From a virus (lineage: Duplodnaviria; Heunggongvirae; Uroviricota; Caudoviricetes), in the IMG/VR virus record IMGVR_UViG_2713896897_000016, positions 1-29,363 of that record: a stretch of 29,363 nucleotides of DNA; one strand, given 5' to 3'. This document shows positions 14,959-26,629 of the stretch, one piece after another. The notes under the pieces were generated by a model. That model ran no database searches, was not told the origin of the DNA, and saw only the letters and a program-made list of their open reading frames with translations. The stretch's first letter is position 1. Every line of letters begins with the position of its first letter. The position numbers and the translations under genes are program-made.

Positions 14959-15159
14959 TCAGATCCACATCCAGTTTTGCCAGCAACGTCGGACGCGCGG
15001 AGGTTTTTCACTCTCCGGCAACCGGGCGCTGATAGTCCACGTGACGTGATCTGGATTCAGTTCTCGCACTATCTGAACGCCACGCGCGCGATAACGCTGC
15101 TGGAGTTCGTCGGCCTCAGCAGTTGTACAATTGTCGTGGTTAAACCAGGAGTATTTCAT
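14959..15159 (-). CDS. Hypothetical nin-region protein (66 aa)
   Basis: The ORF is coupled to the HNH gene (TAATG) and to ninG. No family recognised. Confidence 0.5.
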   Translation of the reverse strand: MKYSWFNHDNCTTAEADELQQRYRARGVQIVRELNPDHVTWTISARLPESEKPPRVRRCWQNWMWI

Positions 15160-15743
15160 TACGCCTCCTGCCGTTCGCGCAGGCGCATAAATTCAGAATC
15201 GTGGGAGAGCGTTTCGCAATAACTCCACCGCATACCTCGATGCAAGCCTTGACGCCCTTGAATTGATGCGTGAACCAAAGAGGGGTTGCAACCATACCCT
15301 CTGGTTGATTGCATTGATGGATACCAATACCCAAAGCCGTTCATTTCGGCGATAACCGGGGTTTTAATTTTATTGGATAGACCGGTTTCATTAGCGTGCC
15401 TCATATTCATTTTATGAGTACACCACTCTAAGTTTTCCGGTCGATTGTTGCGCTTATTCCCGTCTATATGATTTACATGGGGATAGTTGTTGGGATTGGG
15501 AACGAAGGCCATCGCAACAAATCTATGCAGCAATTTATGCCCTCCACCAACAGACACCCGAATGTAATGAGAAGTTATACAGCCCTTCAAAATACGACTT
15601 TTGATCGTTCTGGTAGTCCAGGTTTTTTTATCTTTTCCGCACGTAACTACCTCGCGTGACAGACTACGAACACGTGCAAAAGAGCTTACTTCAAAGCTGT
15701 TTTCGTAGCCCGGCACAGGCTTCCAGATTTCCCCCTCAAACAT
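15159..15743 (-). CDS. HNH homing endonuclease with an N-terminal NUMOD4 motif
   Basis: [24 protein letters not shown] (NUMOD4) and [19 protein letters not shown] (HNH). Confidence 0.85.
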
Positions 15744-16174
15744 GGTCGACTCCTTTTGAGTGGTACTCTGAATCGGCTGGGATTCGAAGTTTTATCCCCC
15801 GTTCCACGCACCAGACCTCAATGCGGCGAAGGTAGAAGGTCATCTCCTCGGTATCCAATAATTTTGGTGGATTTAACCAATTTGGTAACACCGAAGACGG
15901 AAATTGGCTTAGCAGGGCAAAACATGCCCTTAAGATATTCGTGAAGCTCTTCCGAGATGTGCACGCAGGATGAGTAGAGACTGGCAGCTTTAGCTACATC
16001 ATCGTTCCACATCCAAAGAAGTGAGTTTTGGGAGGTTGTACGCTTTTCGCGCCACGGCTTGATAATCAGGCGATAGCATTCGCCCGACTCTAACAACGGC
16101 GTTAATTGCTGCCCTATCGCAGCGAAATTTGATTTGTGTAGGCGCAGGCCGTCACGGGGGAATTGCAATGCCAT
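15736..16174 (-). pseudogene. ninB: NinB-like recombination protein, frameshifted in an A4 run
   Basis: LIIKPWREKRTTSQNSLLWMWNDDV matches the NinB xRSxxQNxxxW core. The ORF stops at 15818. Removing one A from the run at 15862-15865 gives ..[36 protein letters not shown].., which resembles the lambda NinB C-terminus (..FAELLELIQAFGTERGVKW..). The restored length is 145 aa, ending in an ATGTTTGA overlap with the HNH start. Confidence 0.65.
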
Positions 16175-16235
16175 CGGTATCGCTCCGTTGGCACAGTGTT
16201 ACTCAGTGCGAGTTGTTCAGGCTCGCGGATGAATA

Positions 16236-16436
16236 TTATAAATCAGTTACGCCGCGAGTGTAAGAGGAGATGGGTAATCCCGCCATTTTTCGCGCATCCT
16301 CCAGTTCAGTTATTGATGTAACGAATTGGTCAGGCCGCAGGACAAAACCGCCAATAATGCGCCCCTCCTCTATTCTCACCAGTACCAGACCTGTGTGACA
16401 CTCTGCGTCTGGTATTAAATCATTCATGATTCTCAT
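16236..16436 (-). CDS. Hypothetical 66 aa protein downstream of a LexA-box-like site (antirepressor candidate)
   Basis: ATG preceded by GGGAG. It is the first ORF after a 157-nt intergenic gap in an otherwise tightly packed operon. Confidence 0.5.
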   Translation of the reverse strand: MRIMNDLIPDAECHTGLVLVRIEEGRIIGGFVLRPDQFVTSITELEDARKMAGLPISSYTRGVTDL

Positions 16437-16465
16437 GATATCTCCCGTTAAATCAGAGACATAAA

Positions 16466-16485
16466 CACTGTATGTGCGTACAGTG
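16466..16485. promoter_or_regulatory. LexA (SOS) box-like palindrome CACTGTATGTGCGTACAGTG
   Basis: Exact CTGT-N8-ACAG core with 7-bp perfect arms (CACTGTA/TACAGTG). It lies 30-49 nt upstream of the ATG at 16436. Confidence 0.5.
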
Positions 16486-16593
16486 CGACCTCATCCGGGA
16501 GCGTCTCAATAAAAACATTGGGCGCATTTTAATAATCAGCAATTAGCGCGGACAGTGGCATAACCCCCTATTGCCGACAAAACGGGGTTATTG

Positions 16594-17235
16594 TCAGTAA
16601 ATGCCAGAAGCCTGTAGCCAGCGTTTTACCGTCCGGGCTGACGGTGAATCGCTGTATTTTTCACTCAGTTTTGATACGACCGTGTTAACGAGAAATACCC
16701 GCGTACAGTTCGGGTGCGCGTCTATAACGTTGACCGCGTGTTGCAACGCCTCATGATAGTGTGGGTTGTGTGGCCTGCCGCCCTTTTTGCCGTTCCTGCG
16801 CCCGAAATCTCCGATTCTGAACGCTGATACCAGCGGGCGCATCAGCAACGTGAAAAACGCATAGGACACGCGCAAATCCCCTTTGAGTATCATGAATGCA
16901 CAACAAAACGCTGCCACACCGTGAGCATCAACAGATATTCGCATCTGGTCGCAAAACGGTTTAACACGAGAAACGAGATAGTCGAGAACTGGCGAGCCGG
17001 TACCGCCAACTACGTAATACCGGATCGCCTCTTCAAACGACACCGCCGTTACGTCTGTGTCGCCGAGTTGTTTCTTGGCGCGCGCCATTACGCGCTCGGA
17101 CATTTGAGTGAATATCTGTTCCGCACGTTCGCGGAACAGGGGCATAGTGATAGCCTGGGTGTCAAGTTTGCGCAGTAGTTCTACGCGCTCGATGAATTTT
17201 TCAGACCAATTTTCGTCATAGATACCGTGTTTCAT
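16594..17235 (-). CDS. Hypothetical 213 aa protein with a possible C-terminal resolvase-type HTH
   Basis: I took the ATG at 17235, preceded by GGGGG. The 17400 extension overlaps the upstream gene. The C-terminus GKKGGRPHNP...SARTVKRWLQASG resembles Hin/resolvase HTH tails. The call is weak. Confidence 0.55.
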   Translation of the reverse strand: MKHGIYDENWSEKFIERVELLRKLDTQAITMPLFRERAEQIFTQMSERVMARAKKQLGDTDVTAVSFEEAIRYYVVGGTGSPVLDYLVSRVKPFCDQMRISVDAHGVAAFCCAFMILKGDLRVSYAFFTLLMRPLVSAFRIGDFGRRNGKKGGRPHNPHYHEALQHAVNVIDAHPNCTRVFLVNTVVSKLSEKYSDSPSARTVKRWLQASGIY

Positions 17236-17296
17236 AATTACCCCCGAATAAATCACGCAAAACACATTTTCATTAACAATTATTCGAGGTTTGTTA

Positions 17297-17605
17297 TCAA
17301 TTTGAAACACTACCCGCCTGTTGCGCTGAGAGTAGTTGCTCCAGTTCGCGGTGCGCCTCCGCCAGCTCAATAGCGTGATAGCAGCCGCGACTGCCGTCAC
17401 TGTCTAATAGTCTATTTACAGCGGTGATCCAGCTATCTGGAGCCGCCGGATCTGGCGAGCCGTACATTGCCGCCAGCGCGATACGGGCCATCTTTACGAT
17501 TTCACCCGTCTTTATTGATGAAAACACCTCTTCATAGTCACAAGGTTCAAGACCAGCGGCATGAATAATTTCTGCAAGGCGCTCTTTTGTGATTGGAGTT
17601 GTCAT
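17297..17605 (-). CDS. Hypothetical early protein (102 aa)
   Basis: The ORF is coupled to its neighbours (ATGA-type overlap at 17602-17605). No family recognised. Confidence 0.55.
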   Translation of the reverse strand: MTTPITKERLAEIIHAAGLEPCDYEEVFSSIKTGEIVKMARIALAAMYGSPDPAAPDSWITAVNRLLDSDGSRGCYHAIELAEAHRELEQLLSAQQAGSVSN

Positions 17606-19501: not shown

Positions 19502-19551
19502 TTCACGCTCTTTCTCAATCGTTTAGTGTGCAGCTGTTAGTTCACTCATGA

Positions 19552-19632
19552 TTACCCTCTCAACGCCCACGCTATAGCAAGCGCCACACCTATGGTCATA
19601 AATGCCCTCGCCCATGAAATATCGTTTCTCAT
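19552..19632 (-). CDS. Possible 26 aa hydrophobic peptide (MRNDISWARAFMTIGVALAIAWALRG)
   Basis: Below the ORF-track cutoff. The ATG at 19632 lies 4 nt after a GGGGG Shine-Dalgarno and 12 nt after the P stop. A single predicted TM helix is flanked by Arg residues. Confidence 0.35.
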   Translation of the reverse strand: MRNDISWARAFMTIGVALAIAWALRG

Positions 19633-19643
19633 AAAACCCCCTG

Positions 19644-21161: not shown

Positions 21162-21608
21162 TTAGTGCCCTGCCGGGATCACCGTGTTAAATAACCGATT
21201 GAACGCCTCGCGCGCCTCCTTCCCCTCTTTGCACAGCTCGCGATCAGGCGCGCCCAGGTTGACGGCGTTTAAAAACTCCGTGATCTCCTTGAGAGCCAGA
21301 GCAGATAAATACTGCGGCGCATCAGGCATTGACACGGCAGCACTACGCAGAACAGGCATGGCGCGTAATGCCGGGCCTGTCAGTTCTGCCGCCATAGCGC
21401 TATAGCGTGGGCCGTCACAGTTCTGGAAAATACGGCGCACCCCTTGCCTAGCGTTGTCCTGGTCACTGTCTGGGTCGGGTAGTAAACTGCCGCCTCCCTC
21501 GTAGTGATACTGTGCTGCTATATCCAGGCCGACGGTTTGCCAGCCCTCGCTCGCTGCCCACTGATTAATAGCCGTGGCAACGGCATCAATCGACGGAGTG
21601 ATTTGCAT
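21162..21608 (-). CDS. YdaT-like regulator (CII-position protein of Rac-type immunity regions)
   Basis: SEGWQTVGLDIAAQYHYEGGGSLLP resembles Rac YdaT EKGQAWVANAITEEYLRQGGGELPL. It lies directly downstream of the Cro-like gene. Confidence 0.65.
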   Translation of the reverse strand: MQITPSIDAVATAINQWAASEGWQTVGLDIAAQYHYEGGGSLLPDPDSDQDNARQGVRRIFQNCDGPRYSAMAAELTGPALRAMPVLRSAAVSMPDAPQYLSALALKEITEFLNAVNLGAPDRELCKEGKEAREAFNRLFNTVIPAGH

Positions 21609-21816
21609 TTTTCAGCTCCTCGCGACGATTCTGTTTATGCTGGTCATAGATAACGGGGTCGTAAGTTAGAACTCCGCCGGAAGCCTCCTGTAGTCGCATG
21701 GCCCTTGCTTCAGGTACCAACTCTTTCCATTTGTAAAAAGATGGAAGCCTGATGCCCGCAGCCTCCGCTACGCGGGTTTTACTACCAAAAAACTCTAACG
21801 CATCCCTTGTGAACAT
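21586..21816 (-). CDS. Cro/YdaS-like HTH regulator
   Basis: FFGSKTRVAEAAGIRLPSFYKWKE.VPEARAMRLQEASGG is a Cro/YdaS-type HTH. I prefer the ATG at 21816 (AAGGG 7 nt upstream). The alternatives at 21840 and 21876 would overlap an operator-like palindrome. Confidence 0.7.
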   Translation of the reverse strand: MFTRDALEFFGSKTRVAEAAGIRLPSFYKWKELVPEARAMRLQEASGGVLTYDPVIYDQHKQNRREELKNANHSVD

Positions 21817-21832
21817 TATCTTGCCCTTAAAA

Positions 21833-21846
21833 TTAGCCATAACTAA
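21833..21846. promoter_or_regulatory. Operator-like site TTAGCCATAACTAA (12/14 match to the pL palindrome)
   Basis: It lies immediately downstream of a candidate minus-strand -10 in the cI/cro intergenic region. Confidence 0.4.
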
Positions 21847-21847
21847 T

Positions 21848-21876
21848 AAAATACAACCAAATAAAAACTTGATCAA
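21848..21876 (-). promoter_or_regulatory. Candidate pR-like promoter (TTGATC-N17-TATTTT) for the cro-like operon
   Basis: Hexamers and a 17-nt spacer read directly on the minus strand. The -35 lies in the perfect palindrome CTTGATCAAG. Confidence 0.4.
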
Positions 21877-21882
21877 GAGATA

Positions 21883-21896
21883 TTAGTATTAGCTAA
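21883..21896. promoter_or_regulatory. Operator-like site TTAGTATTAGCTAA (11/14 match to the pL palindrome)
   Basis: It ends 2 nt before the repressor ATG at 21899. Confidence 0.35.
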
Positions 21897-21898
21897 CT

Positions 21899-22309
21899 AT
21901 GGATATGAAAAAGTTGACTATCGGCGAACGCATCAGATTCCGCCGCAAAGAGTTGAAATTAACGCAAAAGTCATTAGCTAAGGCCCTTGGGCTGTCTGAT
22001 GTTTCCGTATCGCAGTGGGAAAGAGATGATAGTGAGCCCACGGGGAAGAACCTTTTTGCTTTAGGGAAGGCGCTCCAGTGTTCGGCAACCTGGATTCTCT
22101 ACGGAGATAAAGAACAGACTCCGGGTGTGCCAGTAACTCAGCCGTTAGAGCTTGATGAACAGCAACGAGAGTGGCTTGAATTATTTAATTCATTACCAGA
22201 ATCGGAGCAACTCATACAACTGGAGGCCATGAGAGTAAAAGTCGAAAACTATAATCGACTATTTGATGAACTACTAAAAGCAAGAAAAAGAAACAAAACA
22301 GATAGTTAG
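21899..22309 (+). CDS. CI-like prophage repressor, XRE-family HTH, without a peptidase S24 domain
   Basis: IGERIRFRRKELKLTQKSLAKALGLSDVSVSQWERDDSEP is a classic XRE HTH. The protein is only 136 aa, and its helical C-terminus has no Ala-Gly cleavage site or Ser/Lys dyad region. It is divergent from the cro-like gene. Confidence 0.8.
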   Translation: MDMKKLTIGERIRFRRKELKLTQKSLAKALGLSDVSVSQWERDDSEPTGKNLFALGKALQCSATWILYGDKEQTPGVPVTQPLELDEQQREWLELFNSLPESEQLIQLEAMRVKVENYNRLFDELLKARKRNKTDS

Positions 22310-24312: not shown

Positions 24313-26205
24313 ATGTCAGAATTAAAAGTCTATATCGGTGCATATATCCCCGACGAAAAATCAATTGAAGAAAACGGCGCTCGCAAAGTTGCCTACGCAT
24401 TTGAAGCGCGTGGTGAAAAACACGCGCGAGCAAAACTTTCATTTGCATTCATTGAGGAATATCCGGGAGCGCAGGACGCAGCATTTAAAAGTTTTCTTTG
24501 CGAGGACGCACCAGGAATGCCCCGCCCCGCTCTTAATGTATGGGATGAGGATTTTCTTTATGAAAATGACTGGTCCGAGGAATTAGGACACCCGGTTTCA
24601 CGTATTGAAGAACCGAAGTCAGTGGATTTTAATAAACTCTCCAGCGAGCAAAAAATCGCCGTATTAGTCAAATACTCCACCGCCGATATAACAACCGATA
24701 TGCTGCCGGACGCGCTGGAATTAACACAGGATGAGGCAGGAACATTCCCCGGTCATATTGTCGAGGCAATTAGTAAAACTCCGGCAATTACTGCTATGTA
24801 CCCCGAGCGTATTATTGAGGCCATTCAGTACGTTGTCAAAAAATGCGCAACTACCAGCAAGTGGCCCGACATCAAAGCGCAGCTCGCGAGCTGGCAGAGC
24901 GGTTTAAATCCTGAGCGCACGGAACCGGAATCAACTGAAAAATTACGCACCCCGTCAGGCGCTACCGCTGGCGGTGGTAACGCCACGGATCGCAATCCTG
25001 ATGTTGAGCATGATTTTAACTCTCTCGCGCTCGAAATCGCGCTGGGTATTCATGCACGGGCGATGGATTTTGATATTTACAATCTCCGCTCCGCGCACAT
25101 TAACCGCGCTCGGGAAATTATTAAGTATAAAGAAAAGCCGTTCCCCGCCCTGTTTGACGCGTTCCGTAATACTCCGGGTGTACTCGATTATTCCCGAGCC
25201 ATGATCATCTACGCGGTCAAAACGGCACCGGAAAATATTGAGAGCACGCCGGGTAAATTATCACACTATCTGAACACCACGCTTACGGAGTCAGACCACG
25301 AACACCCGGATCCGCAAATGATCGCTATTGCGTGTGGTACGCACACCGAAGAATCAAGCCAGGGCGAGCCAGCGCCGCAGGAAGACACACCAGAACCAGA
25401 GCGTCAGGGGCCGTTCTACTACCGCACCCCTCAGGGCGAGGTTGGGCGCGCGAATAAGCTGGCAAAACTGACAGCGGTTATTGAGCAGGGTTGCGAGGAG
25501 ATTACACGCGAGCAGTACACGGAACTCAAAAATGCGCCGTCATATGATGACGTTAGTAAACAGCTCGCAGCACAACGCGGTGAATACGTAGAGGGAATCA
25601 GCGACCCGAATGATCCGAAATGGGTTAAGACCGAAGTTCAACCAGAGGTAAAAAACCACGGTAACGGCGTGTTTTCAATTGAGGGGTTAATGGGCGAGCA
25701 GGAAAAACCAGCGGCCCCGGTCGCCTCAGATGAGGGAGTAAAAGCGAAAGAAGCCCATGTTGTAGCCACCCCGGCCCCGGTTGATTTTCAGGGCGTTGCT
25801 GCAAGTCTCGAAAAAGACATGGCAAACAAAAACGACGAGGCCAGGGGCAATCTCGCTATCTGGCGTAGCGTAATGCGGACCGATCCCCGATTCACAAAAC
25901 AGATGGTGGGAATGGGATTTGAGGGAACCAGCATCAACCCCGAATATATGATTATGCGCGCTACGGAGATATTTGGGCCTATCGGTAGTCGTTGGGGTTT
26001 TGAAATATTAGAGGACCGAATGATTCCGGGCGCTCCTTTTTCTGAGGCTGTTTATGAGGATAAAAAATTCATTTGCAACCGCATGTTGCGTGACGGTGAC
26101 GGCACCTTGCTGCATGAACAAAACCACAGCATTAAAATCCGCCTGTGGTATCAGGTCGGTGCTGATGAGGGATCGGTATATGTTCAAAACGAAACACGGA
26201 ATTAA
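24313..26205 (+). CDS. Large early protein: about 500 aa of unknown N-terminal region followed by the first half of a Rad52/Sak-type single-strand annealing core (frame breaks near 26165-26182)
   Basis: The C-terminal part ..SINPEYMIMRATEIFGPIGSRWGFEI...HSIKIRLWYQVGADEGS matches the Rad52-family beta-sheet region. The ORF ends abruptly in ..VYVQNETRN. Confidence 0.65.
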   Translation: MSELKVYIGAYIPDEKSIEENGARKVAYAFEARGEKHARAKLSFAFIEEYPGAQDAAFKSFLCEDAPGMPRPALNVWDEDFLYENDWSEELGHPVSRIEEPKSVDFNKLSSEQKIAVLVKYSTADITTDMLPDALELTQDEAGTFPGHIVEAISKTPAITAMYPERIIEAIQYVVKKCATTSKWPDIKAQLASWQSGLNPERTEPESTEKLRTPSGATAGGGNATDRNPDVEHDFNSLALEIALGIHARAMDFDIYNLRSAHINRAREIIKYKEKPFPALFDAFRNTPGVLDYSRAMIIYAVKTAPENIESTPGKLSHYLNTTLTESDHEHPDPQMIAIACGTHTEESSQGEPAPQEDTPEPERQGPFYYRTPQGEVGRANKLAKLTAVIEQGCEEITREQYTELKNAPSYDDVSKQLAAQRGEYVEGISDPNDPKWVKTEVQPEVKNHGNGVFSIEGLMGEQEKPAAPVASDEGVKAKEAHVVATPAPVDFQGVAASLEKDMANKNDEARGNLAIWRSVMRTDPRFTKQMVGMGFEGTSINPEYMIMRATEIFGPIGSRWGFEILEDRMIPGAPFSEAVYEDKKFICNRMLRDGDGTLLHEQNHSIKIRLWYQVGADEGSVYVQNETRN

Positions 26206-26629
26206 ATGTGATGGCGAGGCGCAAAAGAAATCATTAACCGATGCGCTTAAAAAGGCCTTATCCCTGCTTGGATTCTCTGCTGATGTGTGGCTCGGACTCT
26301 ATGATCTGCCAGAATACCTAGCGGAAAACAACACCGAATTTGCAATTAAAAATGCCAGCGAAAAAGCCGAGGATATTACCCGCCTCCGTGCTGAACTCGA
26401 CGAGAAAATGACGAGCGTGGCAAATACAATTGAAACGGCAGTTACCCCCAACGAAGCAAAAAAAGTTTTTGATACGCTGGCGCGAGAAATAGAAATACAC
26501 CGGAAAGCAGCCGAATCCAAAGGTGATGCCGAACACGCTAAATATCTCGCAAGTCGTTTGCGCCGCCTGAATACAATAAAAGACGCGCGCATTAAATCAC
26601 TAAATGAGCAGCAGGAGCAAACAGCATGA
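26180..26629 (+). CDS. Second half of the Rad52/Sak-type annealing protein (probably continuous with 24313-26205 before a 1-nt insertion)
   Basis: MFKTKHGIKCDGEAQKKSLTDALKKALSLLGFSADVWLGLYD carries the Rad52-family D.EA.K.A.TDALK(R/K)AL..(F/L)G signature helix. It is in the +1 frame relative to the upstream ORF and overlaps it by 26 nt. Confidence 0.6.
   Translation: MFKTKHGIKCDGEAQKKSLTDALKKALSLLGFSADVWLGLYDLPEYLAENNTEFAIKNASEKAEDITRLRAELDEKMTSVANTIETAVTPNEAKKVFDTLAREIEIHRKAAESKGDAEHAKYLASRLRRLNTIKDARIKSLNEQQEQTA

What the first reader, a model, noticed from the sequence alone, without database searches (positions are those of the whole stretch)
16236..16593. LexA-box-like palindrome in front of a 66-aa ORF in a phage whose repressor lacks an autocleavage domain
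Seen in sequence: the only sizeable intergenic gap inside the early-right operon (16437-16593) contains CACTGTATGTGCGTACAGTG (16466-16485). This has a perfect CTGT-N8-ACAG core with 7-bp arms. It lies 30 nt upstream of an ORF with a good SD (16236-16436). A weak sigma70 match (ATGAGG-N16-TACAGT) overlaps the box on the minus strand. The CI-like repressor (21899-22309) is 136 aa with no S24 peptidase region.

Established knowledge: phages with non-cleavable repressors, such as coliphage 186 (Tum) and Salmonella Gifsy phages, are induced through small LexA-repressed antirepressors.

Inference: the 66-aa protein may be the SOS-controlled antirepressor. Alternatively the internal promoter may give SOS-dependent, repressor-independent expression of NinB, NinG and Q.
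Basis: partly seen in the sequence, partly recalled or inferred. Interest (0 to 1): 0.6.

Follow-up and report, generated by a model that had tools for sequence, protein, structure and literature searches.

The report
SOS-controlled Rem-type phage antirepressor gene
A DNA-damage (LexA) operator sits in front of a 66-residue homologue of the known antirepressors Rem and GfoA, in a prophage whose repressor is a non-cleavable DicA type, so this is very probably the phage's DNA-damage induction switch, a known kind of mechanism in a previously uncharacterised member.

Summary
CACTGTATGTGCGTACAGTG (16466-16485) is the only CTGT-N8-ACAG site in the window. It scores 17.5 bits on a LexA matrix, against 7.8 for the next-best site, and 6 of 500 shuffles reach that score. 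It lies 29 nt upstream of a 66-aa ORF.

- The 136-aa repressor is 67% identical to E. coli Qin DicA and has no peptidase domain.
- The 66-aa protein belongs to the Rem family (Pfam PF27490; PHROG 340). This family holds two experimentally shown antirepressors: Rem, which acts on DicA, and Gifsy-1 GfoA.
- Among 75 viral loci encoding homologues, 59 carry a strong LexA box within 450 nt upstream. The box is either directly in front of the gene or in the Gifsy-like order box-dinI-gene. That is about 140-fold above the density elsewhere in the same loci.
- In all 41 viral loci where the immunity region was visible, the repressor is DicA-like.
- The nearest relative (E. coli STEC384) keeps the half-sites despite five substitutions in the box.

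Most likely mechanism: DNA damage cleaves LexA, the antirepressor is made, it inactivates the repressor, and the prophage is induced.

This is a new member of a known kind. It adds one modest point: SOS is the usual input for Rem-type antirepressors, an input reported as unknown for Qin Rem.

The parts
16466..16485 (-). LexA (SOS) box. It reads CACTGTACGCACATACAGTG on the gene strand.
   Evidence: It is the only CTGT-N8-ACAG in the window. It scores 17.5 bits against 7.8 for the next-best site, and 6 of 500 shuffles reach that score. The half-sites are kept in E. coli STEC384 (TACTGTACAAATATACAGTA) and in L005 at the same distance from the ATG.
16504..16509 (-). Candidate -35 hexamer TTGAGA. 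It lies 18 nt upstream of the left half-site CACTGT (16480-16485), which would serve as the -10.
   Evidence: Read from the sequence. The layout matches the Gifsy-type dinI promoters, TTGAnn-N17-TACTGT. TTGAGA is kept in STEC384. The scanner does not call it, so it is inferred.
16236..16436 (-). Gene for a 66-aa Rem-family antirepressor homologue, with SD GGGAG at 16442-16446.
   Evidence: phrog_340 at E 2.6e-10. PF27490 'Rem' is on record for it. BLASTP to Qin Rem gives E 5e-8. HHalign of the family against Rem gives 98.4%. 301 homologues were found in Enterobacterales.
21899..22309 (+). DicA-type prophage repressor (136 aa, HTH_3 only, no S24 peptidase domain). It is the presumed target of the antirepressor.
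   Evidence: Pfam. NCBIfam NF007257 'DicA' at 196.5 bits against a cut-off of 101. 67% identity to Qin DicA.
21586..21816 (-). Cro-like gene (P22_Cro family), the first gene of the early-right operon that derepression would release. The operators are presumably in 21817-21898.
   Evidence: Pfam P22_Cro at E 7e-13. Start read from the sequence. The operators are inferred, not mapped.
16560..16592 (-). Hairpin AAUAACCCC...GGGGGUUAU just after the stop of the upstream gene. It contains the motif ATAGGGGGTT (16562-16571). Its role is unknown: it may insulate the antirepressor promoter or provide a second regulatory input.
   Evidence: Fold of -14.4 kcal/mol, z -2.05, with no U-tract. In 1.45 Mb of fetched loci the motif occurs only upstream of rem-like genes, 22 of 22 times.

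Best explanation
The palindrome is a LexA operator that overlaps the promoter of a small antirepressor gene of the Rem/GfoA family.

Proposed sequence of events:
1. In the lysogen, the DicA-type repressor (21899-22309) silences the divergent early promoters. Host LexA keeps the 66-aa gene off.
2. DNA damage activates RecA, and LexA cleaves itself.
3. The 66-aa protein is made. It binds the repressor, which cannot cleave itself, and takes it off its operators.
4. Cro, the replication genes and Q are then expressed, and the prophage is induced.

Transcripts from the same promoter probably also run into ninB, ninG and Q.

Shown here:
- the site and its score;
- its conservation in relatives;
- the family membership of both proteins;
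- their co-occurrence across phages.

Inferred from the characterised relatives Gifsy GfoA/GfoR and Qin Rem/DicA:
- LexA binding;
- promoter activity;
- the protein-protein interaction.
For: Site:
- 17.5 bits on the LexA matrix, alone in the window, and rare in shuffles.
- STEC384 differs from the window at 5 of 20 box positions. The differences are confined to the two outermost bases, which change symmetrically (C..G to T..A), and to the central spacer. CTGT/ACAG stays intact and the site becomes near-consensus.
- L005, whose protein is only 50% identical, keeps a box at the same distance from the ATG.

Protein:
- PHROG 340 is shared with Rem (E 4e-21) and GfoA (E 8e-21).
- HHalign against Rem gives 98.4%.
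- Pfam 'Rem' is recorded for it.

Context:
- 59 of 75 viral loci (36 of 48 distinct proteins) have a box of at least 16 bits within 450 nt upstream. The density is 1.75 per kb there against 0.0126 per kb elsewhere in the loci.
- 16 protein types have the order box-dinI-gene, exactly the slot of the Gifsy antirepressor. 20 have the box directly upstream.
- The repressor is DicA-like in 28 of 28 cases (26 viral loci, the window and STEC384), and in 13 of 13 further dinI-type viral loci read with 10-kb flanks.
- The window repressor is 67% identical to DicA.

Published function:
- Rem derepresses DicA-controlled dicBp (PMC10448788).
- GfoA and GftA bind their repressors and are LexA-controlled (PMC3121763).
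Against: - There is no experimental test.
- The box is weaker than in the relatives because of a G+C-rich spacer. It is comparable to the recA, sulA and ydjM sites as I recall them.
- No canonical sigma-70 promoter is called over the box. Both candidate promoters are weak.
- 16 of 75 loci, and K-12 Qin rem itself (best site 2.2 bits), have no LexA box. SOS control is therefore usual but not obligatory for the family.
- The window and STEC384 have 97% identical Rem-like proteins but only about 50% identical repressors. Partner specificity is therefore unclear, although GfoA also acts on heteroimmune repressors.
- Similarity to GfoA is seen only through the PHROG profile. Direct HHalign is weak (E 0.004).
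Confidence: 0.78

Rival explanations
1. The LexA-controlled promoter exists mainly to give SOS-dependent, repressor-independent expression of the downstream genes (ninB, ninG, the Q-like antiterminator). On this view the 66-aa protein is not what induces the phage.
For: No terminator is predicted between the 66-aa gene and ninB. The gene always lies at the head of the nin-Q block in the related loci I read.
Against: Rem and GfoA alone are sufficient to derepress their repressors' targets (PMC10448788, PMC3121763). The 66-aa protein is their homologue. The strict pairing with DicA-like repressors is not explained by a nin/Q role. This reading is compatible with the main one as a side effect.
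Confidence: 0.1
2. The palindrome is not a LexA operator. It is a chance match or an RNA hairpin or weak terminator inside the early-right operon. The Rem-like gene would then be expressed only from pR after induction by some other route.
For: The scanner lists it as terminator-like: an 8-bp stem followed by UUUAUGUCUCU. The CTGT-N8-ACAG core alone occurs by chance in 24% of shuffles. Some relatives and Qin rem lack any box.
Against: The RNA fold is unremarkable (-11.9 kcal/mol, z -1.3). Relatives keep near-consensus LexA boxes with A+T-rich spacers, which are poor hairpins, and their density is about 140-fold above background. Substitutions in STEC384 spare exactly the LexA-critical bases.
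Confidence: 0.07
3. The 66-aa protein is SOS-induced but acts elsewhere, for example by modulating RecA or LexA together with DinI, and does not act on the phage repressor.
For: In 16 protein types it is co-transcribed with a dinI homologue. Its small beta-hairpin-plus-helix model matches no solved fold.
Against: Homology to two proven antirepressors. In Gifsy, non-polar deletions of dinI or irsA had no significant effect on induction, while expression of the small ORF alone induced the prophage (PMC3121763). It always co-occurs with DicA-type repressors.
Confidence: 0.05

Closest known systems
Qin prophage Rem / DicA (E. coli K-12; Ragunathan et al. 2023, PMC10448788)
   Same: Same protein family for both partners. 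The repressor is 67% identical to DicA. The small protein is homologous to Rem over its conserved core GFxLRxxEFVTS...AG. In both phages the gene lies outside the immunity region, upstream of the Q-like gene.
   Different: Rem is 83 aa with a longer N-terminus; the window's protein is 66 aa. Qin rem has no LexA box (best 2.2 bits). [quoted passage not shown] Here the gene has a LexA box 29 nt from its start.
Gifsy-1/-3 GfoA/GfhA and Gifsy-2 GftA antirepressors under LexA control (Lemire et al. 2011, PMC3121763)
   Same: Same logic: a short non-cleavable repressor, a small antirepressor encoded in the nin region, and a LexA box overlapping its promoter. GfoA falls in the same PHROG (340). The same conserved hairpin and SD junction follows the gene.
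   Different: In Gifsy the box controls dinI-antirepressor-irsA, whereas the window has no dinI. Direct profile similarity to GfoA is weak. There is none to GftA, which is PHROG 4847.
Coliphage 186 Tum and N15 AntC (LexA-controlled antirepressors, as cited in PMC3121763)
   Same: SOS induction runs through a LexA-repressed antirepressor instead of repressor autocleavage.
   Different: According to PMC3121763, Tum is 146 aa and resembles DinI in its second half. No DinI-like sequence is present in the window. These are different phage types, and sequence relatedness to them was not tested here.

Membership tests
Gammaproteobacterial LexA (SOS) box | 16-bp core CTGT-N8-ACAG within a 20-bp palindrome. 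| tested here: met
   Perfect core and 7-bp arms at 16466-16485.
Gammaproteobacterial LexA (SOS) box | A matrix or heterology score within the range of validated sites. | tested here: met
   17.5 bits (training sites 12.7-26.9) and an HI-like value of 7.7 (training sites 0.45-9.5). The matrix was built from sites recalled from memory, not from a curated file.
Gammaproteobacterial LexA (SOS) box | The site overlaps or adjoins the promoter of the regulated gene. | tested here: inconclusive
   The box ends 29 nt before the ATG. There are two candidate promoters, TTGAGA-N18-CACTGT and ATGAGG-N16-TACAGT. Neither passes the scanner, and no transcription start data exist.
Gammaproteobacterial LexA (SOS) box | Bound by LexA and derepressed on DNA damage. 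| not testable with these tools
   Needs EMSA or footprinting and a reporter assay.
Rem / GfoA small antirepressors (Pfam PF27490 'Rem'; PHROG 340) | Sequence membership. | tested here: met
   phrog_340 at E 2.6e-10, with Rem at 4.4e-21 and GfoA at 7.6e-21 in the same PHROG. HHalign of the family against Rem gives 98.4%. PF27490 is on record for it, marked 'faint' for this protein. The local Pfam copy gave no hit to this family.
Rem / GfoA small antirepressors (Pfam PF27490 'Rem'; PHROG 340) | Encoded outside the immunity region of a phage whose repressor is a short, non-cleavable DicA/GfoR type. | tested here: met
   The gene lies 5.5 kb from the repressor gene. The repressor is DicA-like here. 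It is also DicA-like in all 41 viral loci where the immunity region was visible and in STEC384.
Rem / GfoA small antirepressors (Pfam PF27490 'Rem'; PHROG 340) | Binds the repressor and releases it from DNA; its expression alone derepresses or induces. | not testable with these tools
   Shown only for Rem, GfoA and GftA in the cited papers. A correlation between Rem-like proteins and the repressor's C-terminal half is weak (Mantel r 0.37).
DicA / Gifsy-type non-cleavable repressors | About 135 aa, with an N-terminal HTH_3 domain, a helical C-terminal half, and no S24 peptidase domain. | tested here: met
   Pfam finds HTH_3 only. NCBIfam DicA scores 196.5 bits against a cut-off of 101. 67% identity to DicA over 131 residues.
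Tum-type (186) antirepressor with a DinI-like half | A DinI-like C-terminal half. | tested here: not met
   tblastn finds no DinI match in the window. The protein is only 66 aa.

The most novel reading that the evidence does not exclude
Rem-type antirepressors form a broad Enterobacterales family whose default input is LexA. Some lineages have replaced the LexA box, and the window supplements it, with a distinct element: ATAGGGGGTT(GCGC), repeated every 120 bp in Klebsiella-type loci and found only upstream of rem-like genes. That element would be a second, non-SOS induction input. On this reading the window's antirepressor integrates two signals, and Qin Rem's 'unknown signal' reflects loss of the ancestral LexA box.
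Probability: 0.2. Interest if true: 0.6.

Novelty: new member of a known kind. Interest (0 to 1): 0.4.

Why it matters
This explains how a lambdoid prophage with a repressor that cannot cleave itself can still respond to DNA damage.

It also extends the Gifsy model to the Rem/DicA pair. The 2023 study of Rem stated that the inducing signal was unknown. The comparative data here predict that SOS, acting through LexA, is the usual signal for Rem-family antirepressors across Enterobacterales, and that Qin has lost that control.

The gene is annotated 'hypothetical' wherever a source name was listed and is not annotated at all in one Klebsiella phage. Recognising it would improve prediction of which prophages are SOS-inducible, including those in STEC-like strains.

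Tried and rejected
- Megablast of the region against phage records found nothing.
- The local Pfam and NCBIfam libraries gave no family for the 66-aa protein. The family name came only from precomputed hits.
- BLASTP and HHalign against Gifsy-2 GftA showed no similarity. I therefore do not claim that the protein belongs with GftA.
- The AlphaFold model (pLDDT 74; a beta-hairpin plus a helix) matched no PDB fold, best E 1.8.
- Rfam had no hit in 15700-17300.
- The promoter scanner called nothing over the box and nothing informative in the Klebsiella repeat region.
- A genome-contig scan with the family alignment failed because no stretch was conserved enough.
- The mirror-tree test of Rem-like proteins against repressors gave only a weak correlation, confounded by shared ancestry. 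I do not use it as evidence of binding.
- I did not attempt a fused-chain structure prediction of the complex.

Full report
**Observation**

Read on the minus strand, the gap 16437-16593 contains CACTGTACGCACATACAGTG (16485-16466). It has 7-bp perfect arms and a perfect CTGT-N8-ACAG core.

- It is the only such core in the window. The core alone is weak evidence: 0.29 are expected and 24 of 100 shuffles have one.
- I built a 20-column matrix from 23 E. coli LexA sites recalled from memory, which is a limitation. On it the site scores 17.5 bits. That is inside the range of the training sites (12.7-26.9) and far above the next-best site in the window (7.8).
- Six of 500 dinucleotide shuffles of the whole 29 kb reach that score anywhere.
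- A heterology-index-like value from the same sites is 7.7.
- The box ends 29 nt before the ATG of a 66-aa ORF (16236-16436). That ORF has a GGGAG Shine-Dalgarno sequence, and its first ATG aligns with the starts of its homologues.
A second arrangement, TTGAGA-N18-CACTGT, mirrors the Gifsy-type promoters, where the left half-site of the box serves as the -10. The consensus scanner calls neither.

**Genomic setting**

The window is a lambdoid prophage with its early-right operon on the minus strand. The gene order is:

1. a Cro-like gene;
2. a CII/YdaT-like gene;
3. O- and P-like replication genes;
4. several small ORFs;
5. an ORF of unknown function (PHROG 5215);
6. the gap;
7. the 66-aa gene;
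8. a NinB-like gene;
9. an HNH endonuclease gene;
10. NinG;
11. a DUF1133 Q-like gene.

The divergent 136-aa repressor has only an HTH_3 domain. It exceeds the NCBIfam cut-off for 'transcriptional repressor DicA' (196.5 bits against 101). It is 67% identical to E. coli K-12 Qin DicA over 131 residues.

The left operon carries RecE-like and Gam-like genes and no Ant/KilAC-type antirepressor. No DinI homologue is present.

**What the 66-aa protein is**

- It matches PHROG 340 (E 2.6e-10).
- The big protein collection records Pfam PF27490 for its relatives. A gene-context look-up names that family 'Rem'.
- I fetched Qin rem from K-12. BLASTP of the 66-aa protein against Rem gives 34% identity over 44 residues, E 5e-8.
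- A 48-member family profile aligns to Rem with 98.4% probability, E 6e-15.
- The shared core is GFxLRxDEFVTS...L.EA.K.AGLP.
- Rem is the experimentally shown antirepressor of DicA, giving 165-fold derepression of dicBp (PMC10448788).
- I recovered Gifsy-1 gfoA from viral contigs with the published primer sequence. GfoA hits the same PHROG 340 at E 7.6e-21, and Rem hits it at 4.4e-21.
- Direct HHalign of the family against the single GfoA sequence is weak (E 0.004).
- There is no similarity to Gifsy-2 GftA, which is PHROG 4847.
- The AlphaFold model is a beta-hairpin followed by a helix (pLDDT 74). It has no counterpart in the PDB.

**Comparative test of the LexA link**

The nearest relative is a prophage in E. 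coli STEC384/STEC379, 93% identical over the region.

- Its box reads TACTGTACAAATATACAGTA.
- Five of the 20 box positions differ from the window. The differences are the two outermost bases, which change symmetrically, and three spacer bases.
- CTGT/ACAG is untouched, and the site becomes near-consensus at 25.5 bits.

A scan of viral contigs returned 80 loci encoding homologues, with 52 distinct proteins among these loci, the window, STEC384 and the Klebsiella phage.

- Of the 75 loci with at least 450 nt upstream, 59 carry a box of at least 16 bits within 450 nt. That is 36 of 48 distinct proteins.
- The density is 1.75 per kb there, against 0.0126 per kb in the remaining 795 kb of the same loci.
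- Two architectures occur. In 20 protein types the box sits directly upstream, 48 to about 175 nt from the start. In 16 the order is box-dinI-gene, which is the Gifsy operon with the Rem-like gene in the antirepressor slot.
- L005, whose protein is only 50% identical to the window's, keeps a box at the same distance from the ATG and has conserved flanks.

The repressor was checked wherever the immunity region was visible.

- Within 6 kb upstream it is a full-length DicA-like protein in 28 of 28 cases (26 viral loci, the window and STEC384).
- With 10-kb flanks it is DicA-like in 13 of 13 further dinI-type viral loci, each with a P22-Cro-like neighbour.
- LexA and lambda CI used as queries found nothing in the 6-kb or the 10-kb loci.

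K-12 Qin rem has no LexA box; the best site in the 600 nt upstream scores 2.2 bits. [quoted passage not shown]

**Mechanism**

The best-supported model is the Gifsy/Rem scheme.

1. LexA represses the antirepressor promoter.
2. DNA damage removes LexA.
3. The 66-aa protein inactivates the DicA-type repressor.
4. The early promoters fire.

Site quality, conservation, family membership and co-occurrence are shown here. LexA binding, promoter activity and the protein contact are inferred from the characterised relatives.

No terminator is predicted after the gene.

**Points against the model, or left open**

- The box has a G+C-rich spacer and is weaker than its relatives.
- The promoter is not securely identified.
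- 16 of 75 loci lack a box.
- The window and STEC384 share a 97% identical Rem-like protein but have repressors only about 50% identical. Lemire et al. showed that GfoA acts on two heteroimmune repressors, so this need not be a problem.
- The correlation between Rem-like proteins and the repressor's C-terminal half is modest (Mantel r 0.37, against 0.15 for the N-terminal half). It is confounded by ancestry.
- The terminator reading of the palindrome is weak. Its fold is ordinary (z -1.3), and relatives conserve LexA-consensus bases rather than hairpin strength.

**Novelty**

LexA-controlled small antirepressors for short non-cleavable repressors are established for Gifsy phages, 186 and N15 (PMC3121763). 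Rem/DicA is established as a pair (PMC10448788). This locus is a new, uncharacterised member of that kind.

- In the window the box acts directly on the antirepressor gene, with no dinI between them.
- In the paper library I searched, no paper links the Rem family to LexA.
- The family-wide enrichment of LexA boxes is therefore a modest new point. It gives a testable answer to what normally induces Rem-type antirepressors.

**Other things seen**

- A short hairpin with an invariant loop YCUGAACAR and covarying stem pairs follows rem-like and gfoA genes in many phages.
- The motif ATAGGGGGTT occurs only upstream of rem-like genes. It is repeated every 120 bp in Klebsiella-type loci that lack a LexA box.
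- ninB and recE look frameshifted in this window, and an HNH endonuclease gene sits at the 3' end of ninB.

Noticed in passing
window 16208-16226 (minus strand), between the 66-aa gene and ninB; also L002, L003, L055, L085/L086 and others: There is a short hairpin, GCGAG-CCTGAACAA-CTCGC, followed by CTGTGCCAACGGAG, the SD of the next gene. I found 29 distinct versions after rem-like and gfoA/gftA genes. In the 18 I aligned, the core CTGAACA of the loop YCTGAACAR is invariant and the inner three pairs always form, with GC/AU/CG/UA covariation (covariation score 0.44 against 0.16 in shuffles). There is no Rfam match. It is loosely boxB-like, and its function is unknown. It could also be a conserved module boundary.
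   Followed up: partly
window 16562-16571 (minus strand); L002 5690/5810/5928; L063 5571-5938: The motif ATAGGGGGTT occurs 22 times in 1.45 Mb of fetched loci, about 3 expected by chance. Every copy lies upstream of a rem-like gene and on the same strand. Klebsiella-type loci that lack a LexA box carry 2-4 copies at a 120-bp period (ATAGGGGGTTGCRC...AAAATGTGCAT). The window and STEC384 have one copy plus the LexA box. It may be a second regulatory input, and it is unexplained.
   Followed up: partly
window 15736-16174 and 15159-15743 (minus strand): The NinB-like ORF is 118 aa here but 145 aa in other contigs that encode the identical 66-aa protein. Its C-terminal part continues in another frame, which suggests a frameshift or an assembly error. 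An HNH endonuclease gene (NUMOD4 + HNH_3) sits at the 3' end of ninB, and its last residues ([14 protein letters not shown]) equal the NinB C-terminus of the STEC384 relative. This suggests insertion of a homing endonuclease.
   Followed up: partly
window 24313-26205 and 26054-26629 (+ strand): A RecE-like exonuclease is split into two overlapping ORFs (630 and 191 aa) that match consecutive parts of PHROG 2489. This is a second apparent frameshift, so the prophage may be decaying or the draft assembly may carry indel errors.
   Followed up: no
window 19502-19643 (minus strand): This is a second intergenic gap of 142 nt in the early-right operon. It contains a possible 26-aa hydrophobic ORF (MRNDISWARAFMTIGVALAIAWALRG) preceded by GGGGG.
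   Followed up: no
window 16235-16264 (minus strand): A promoter-like match, CTTACA-N18-TATAAT (10 of 12), overlaps the stop codon of the 66-aa gene. It lies just upstream of the CUGAACA hairpin and ninB.
   Followed up: no
L005 about 650-750 nt upstream of its rem-like gene; L068, L070-L072 at -851: Some relatives carry additional strong LexA boxes (27-29 bits) further upstream of the rem-like or dinI operon. This hints at more than one SOS-controlled unit in those phages.
   Followed up: no
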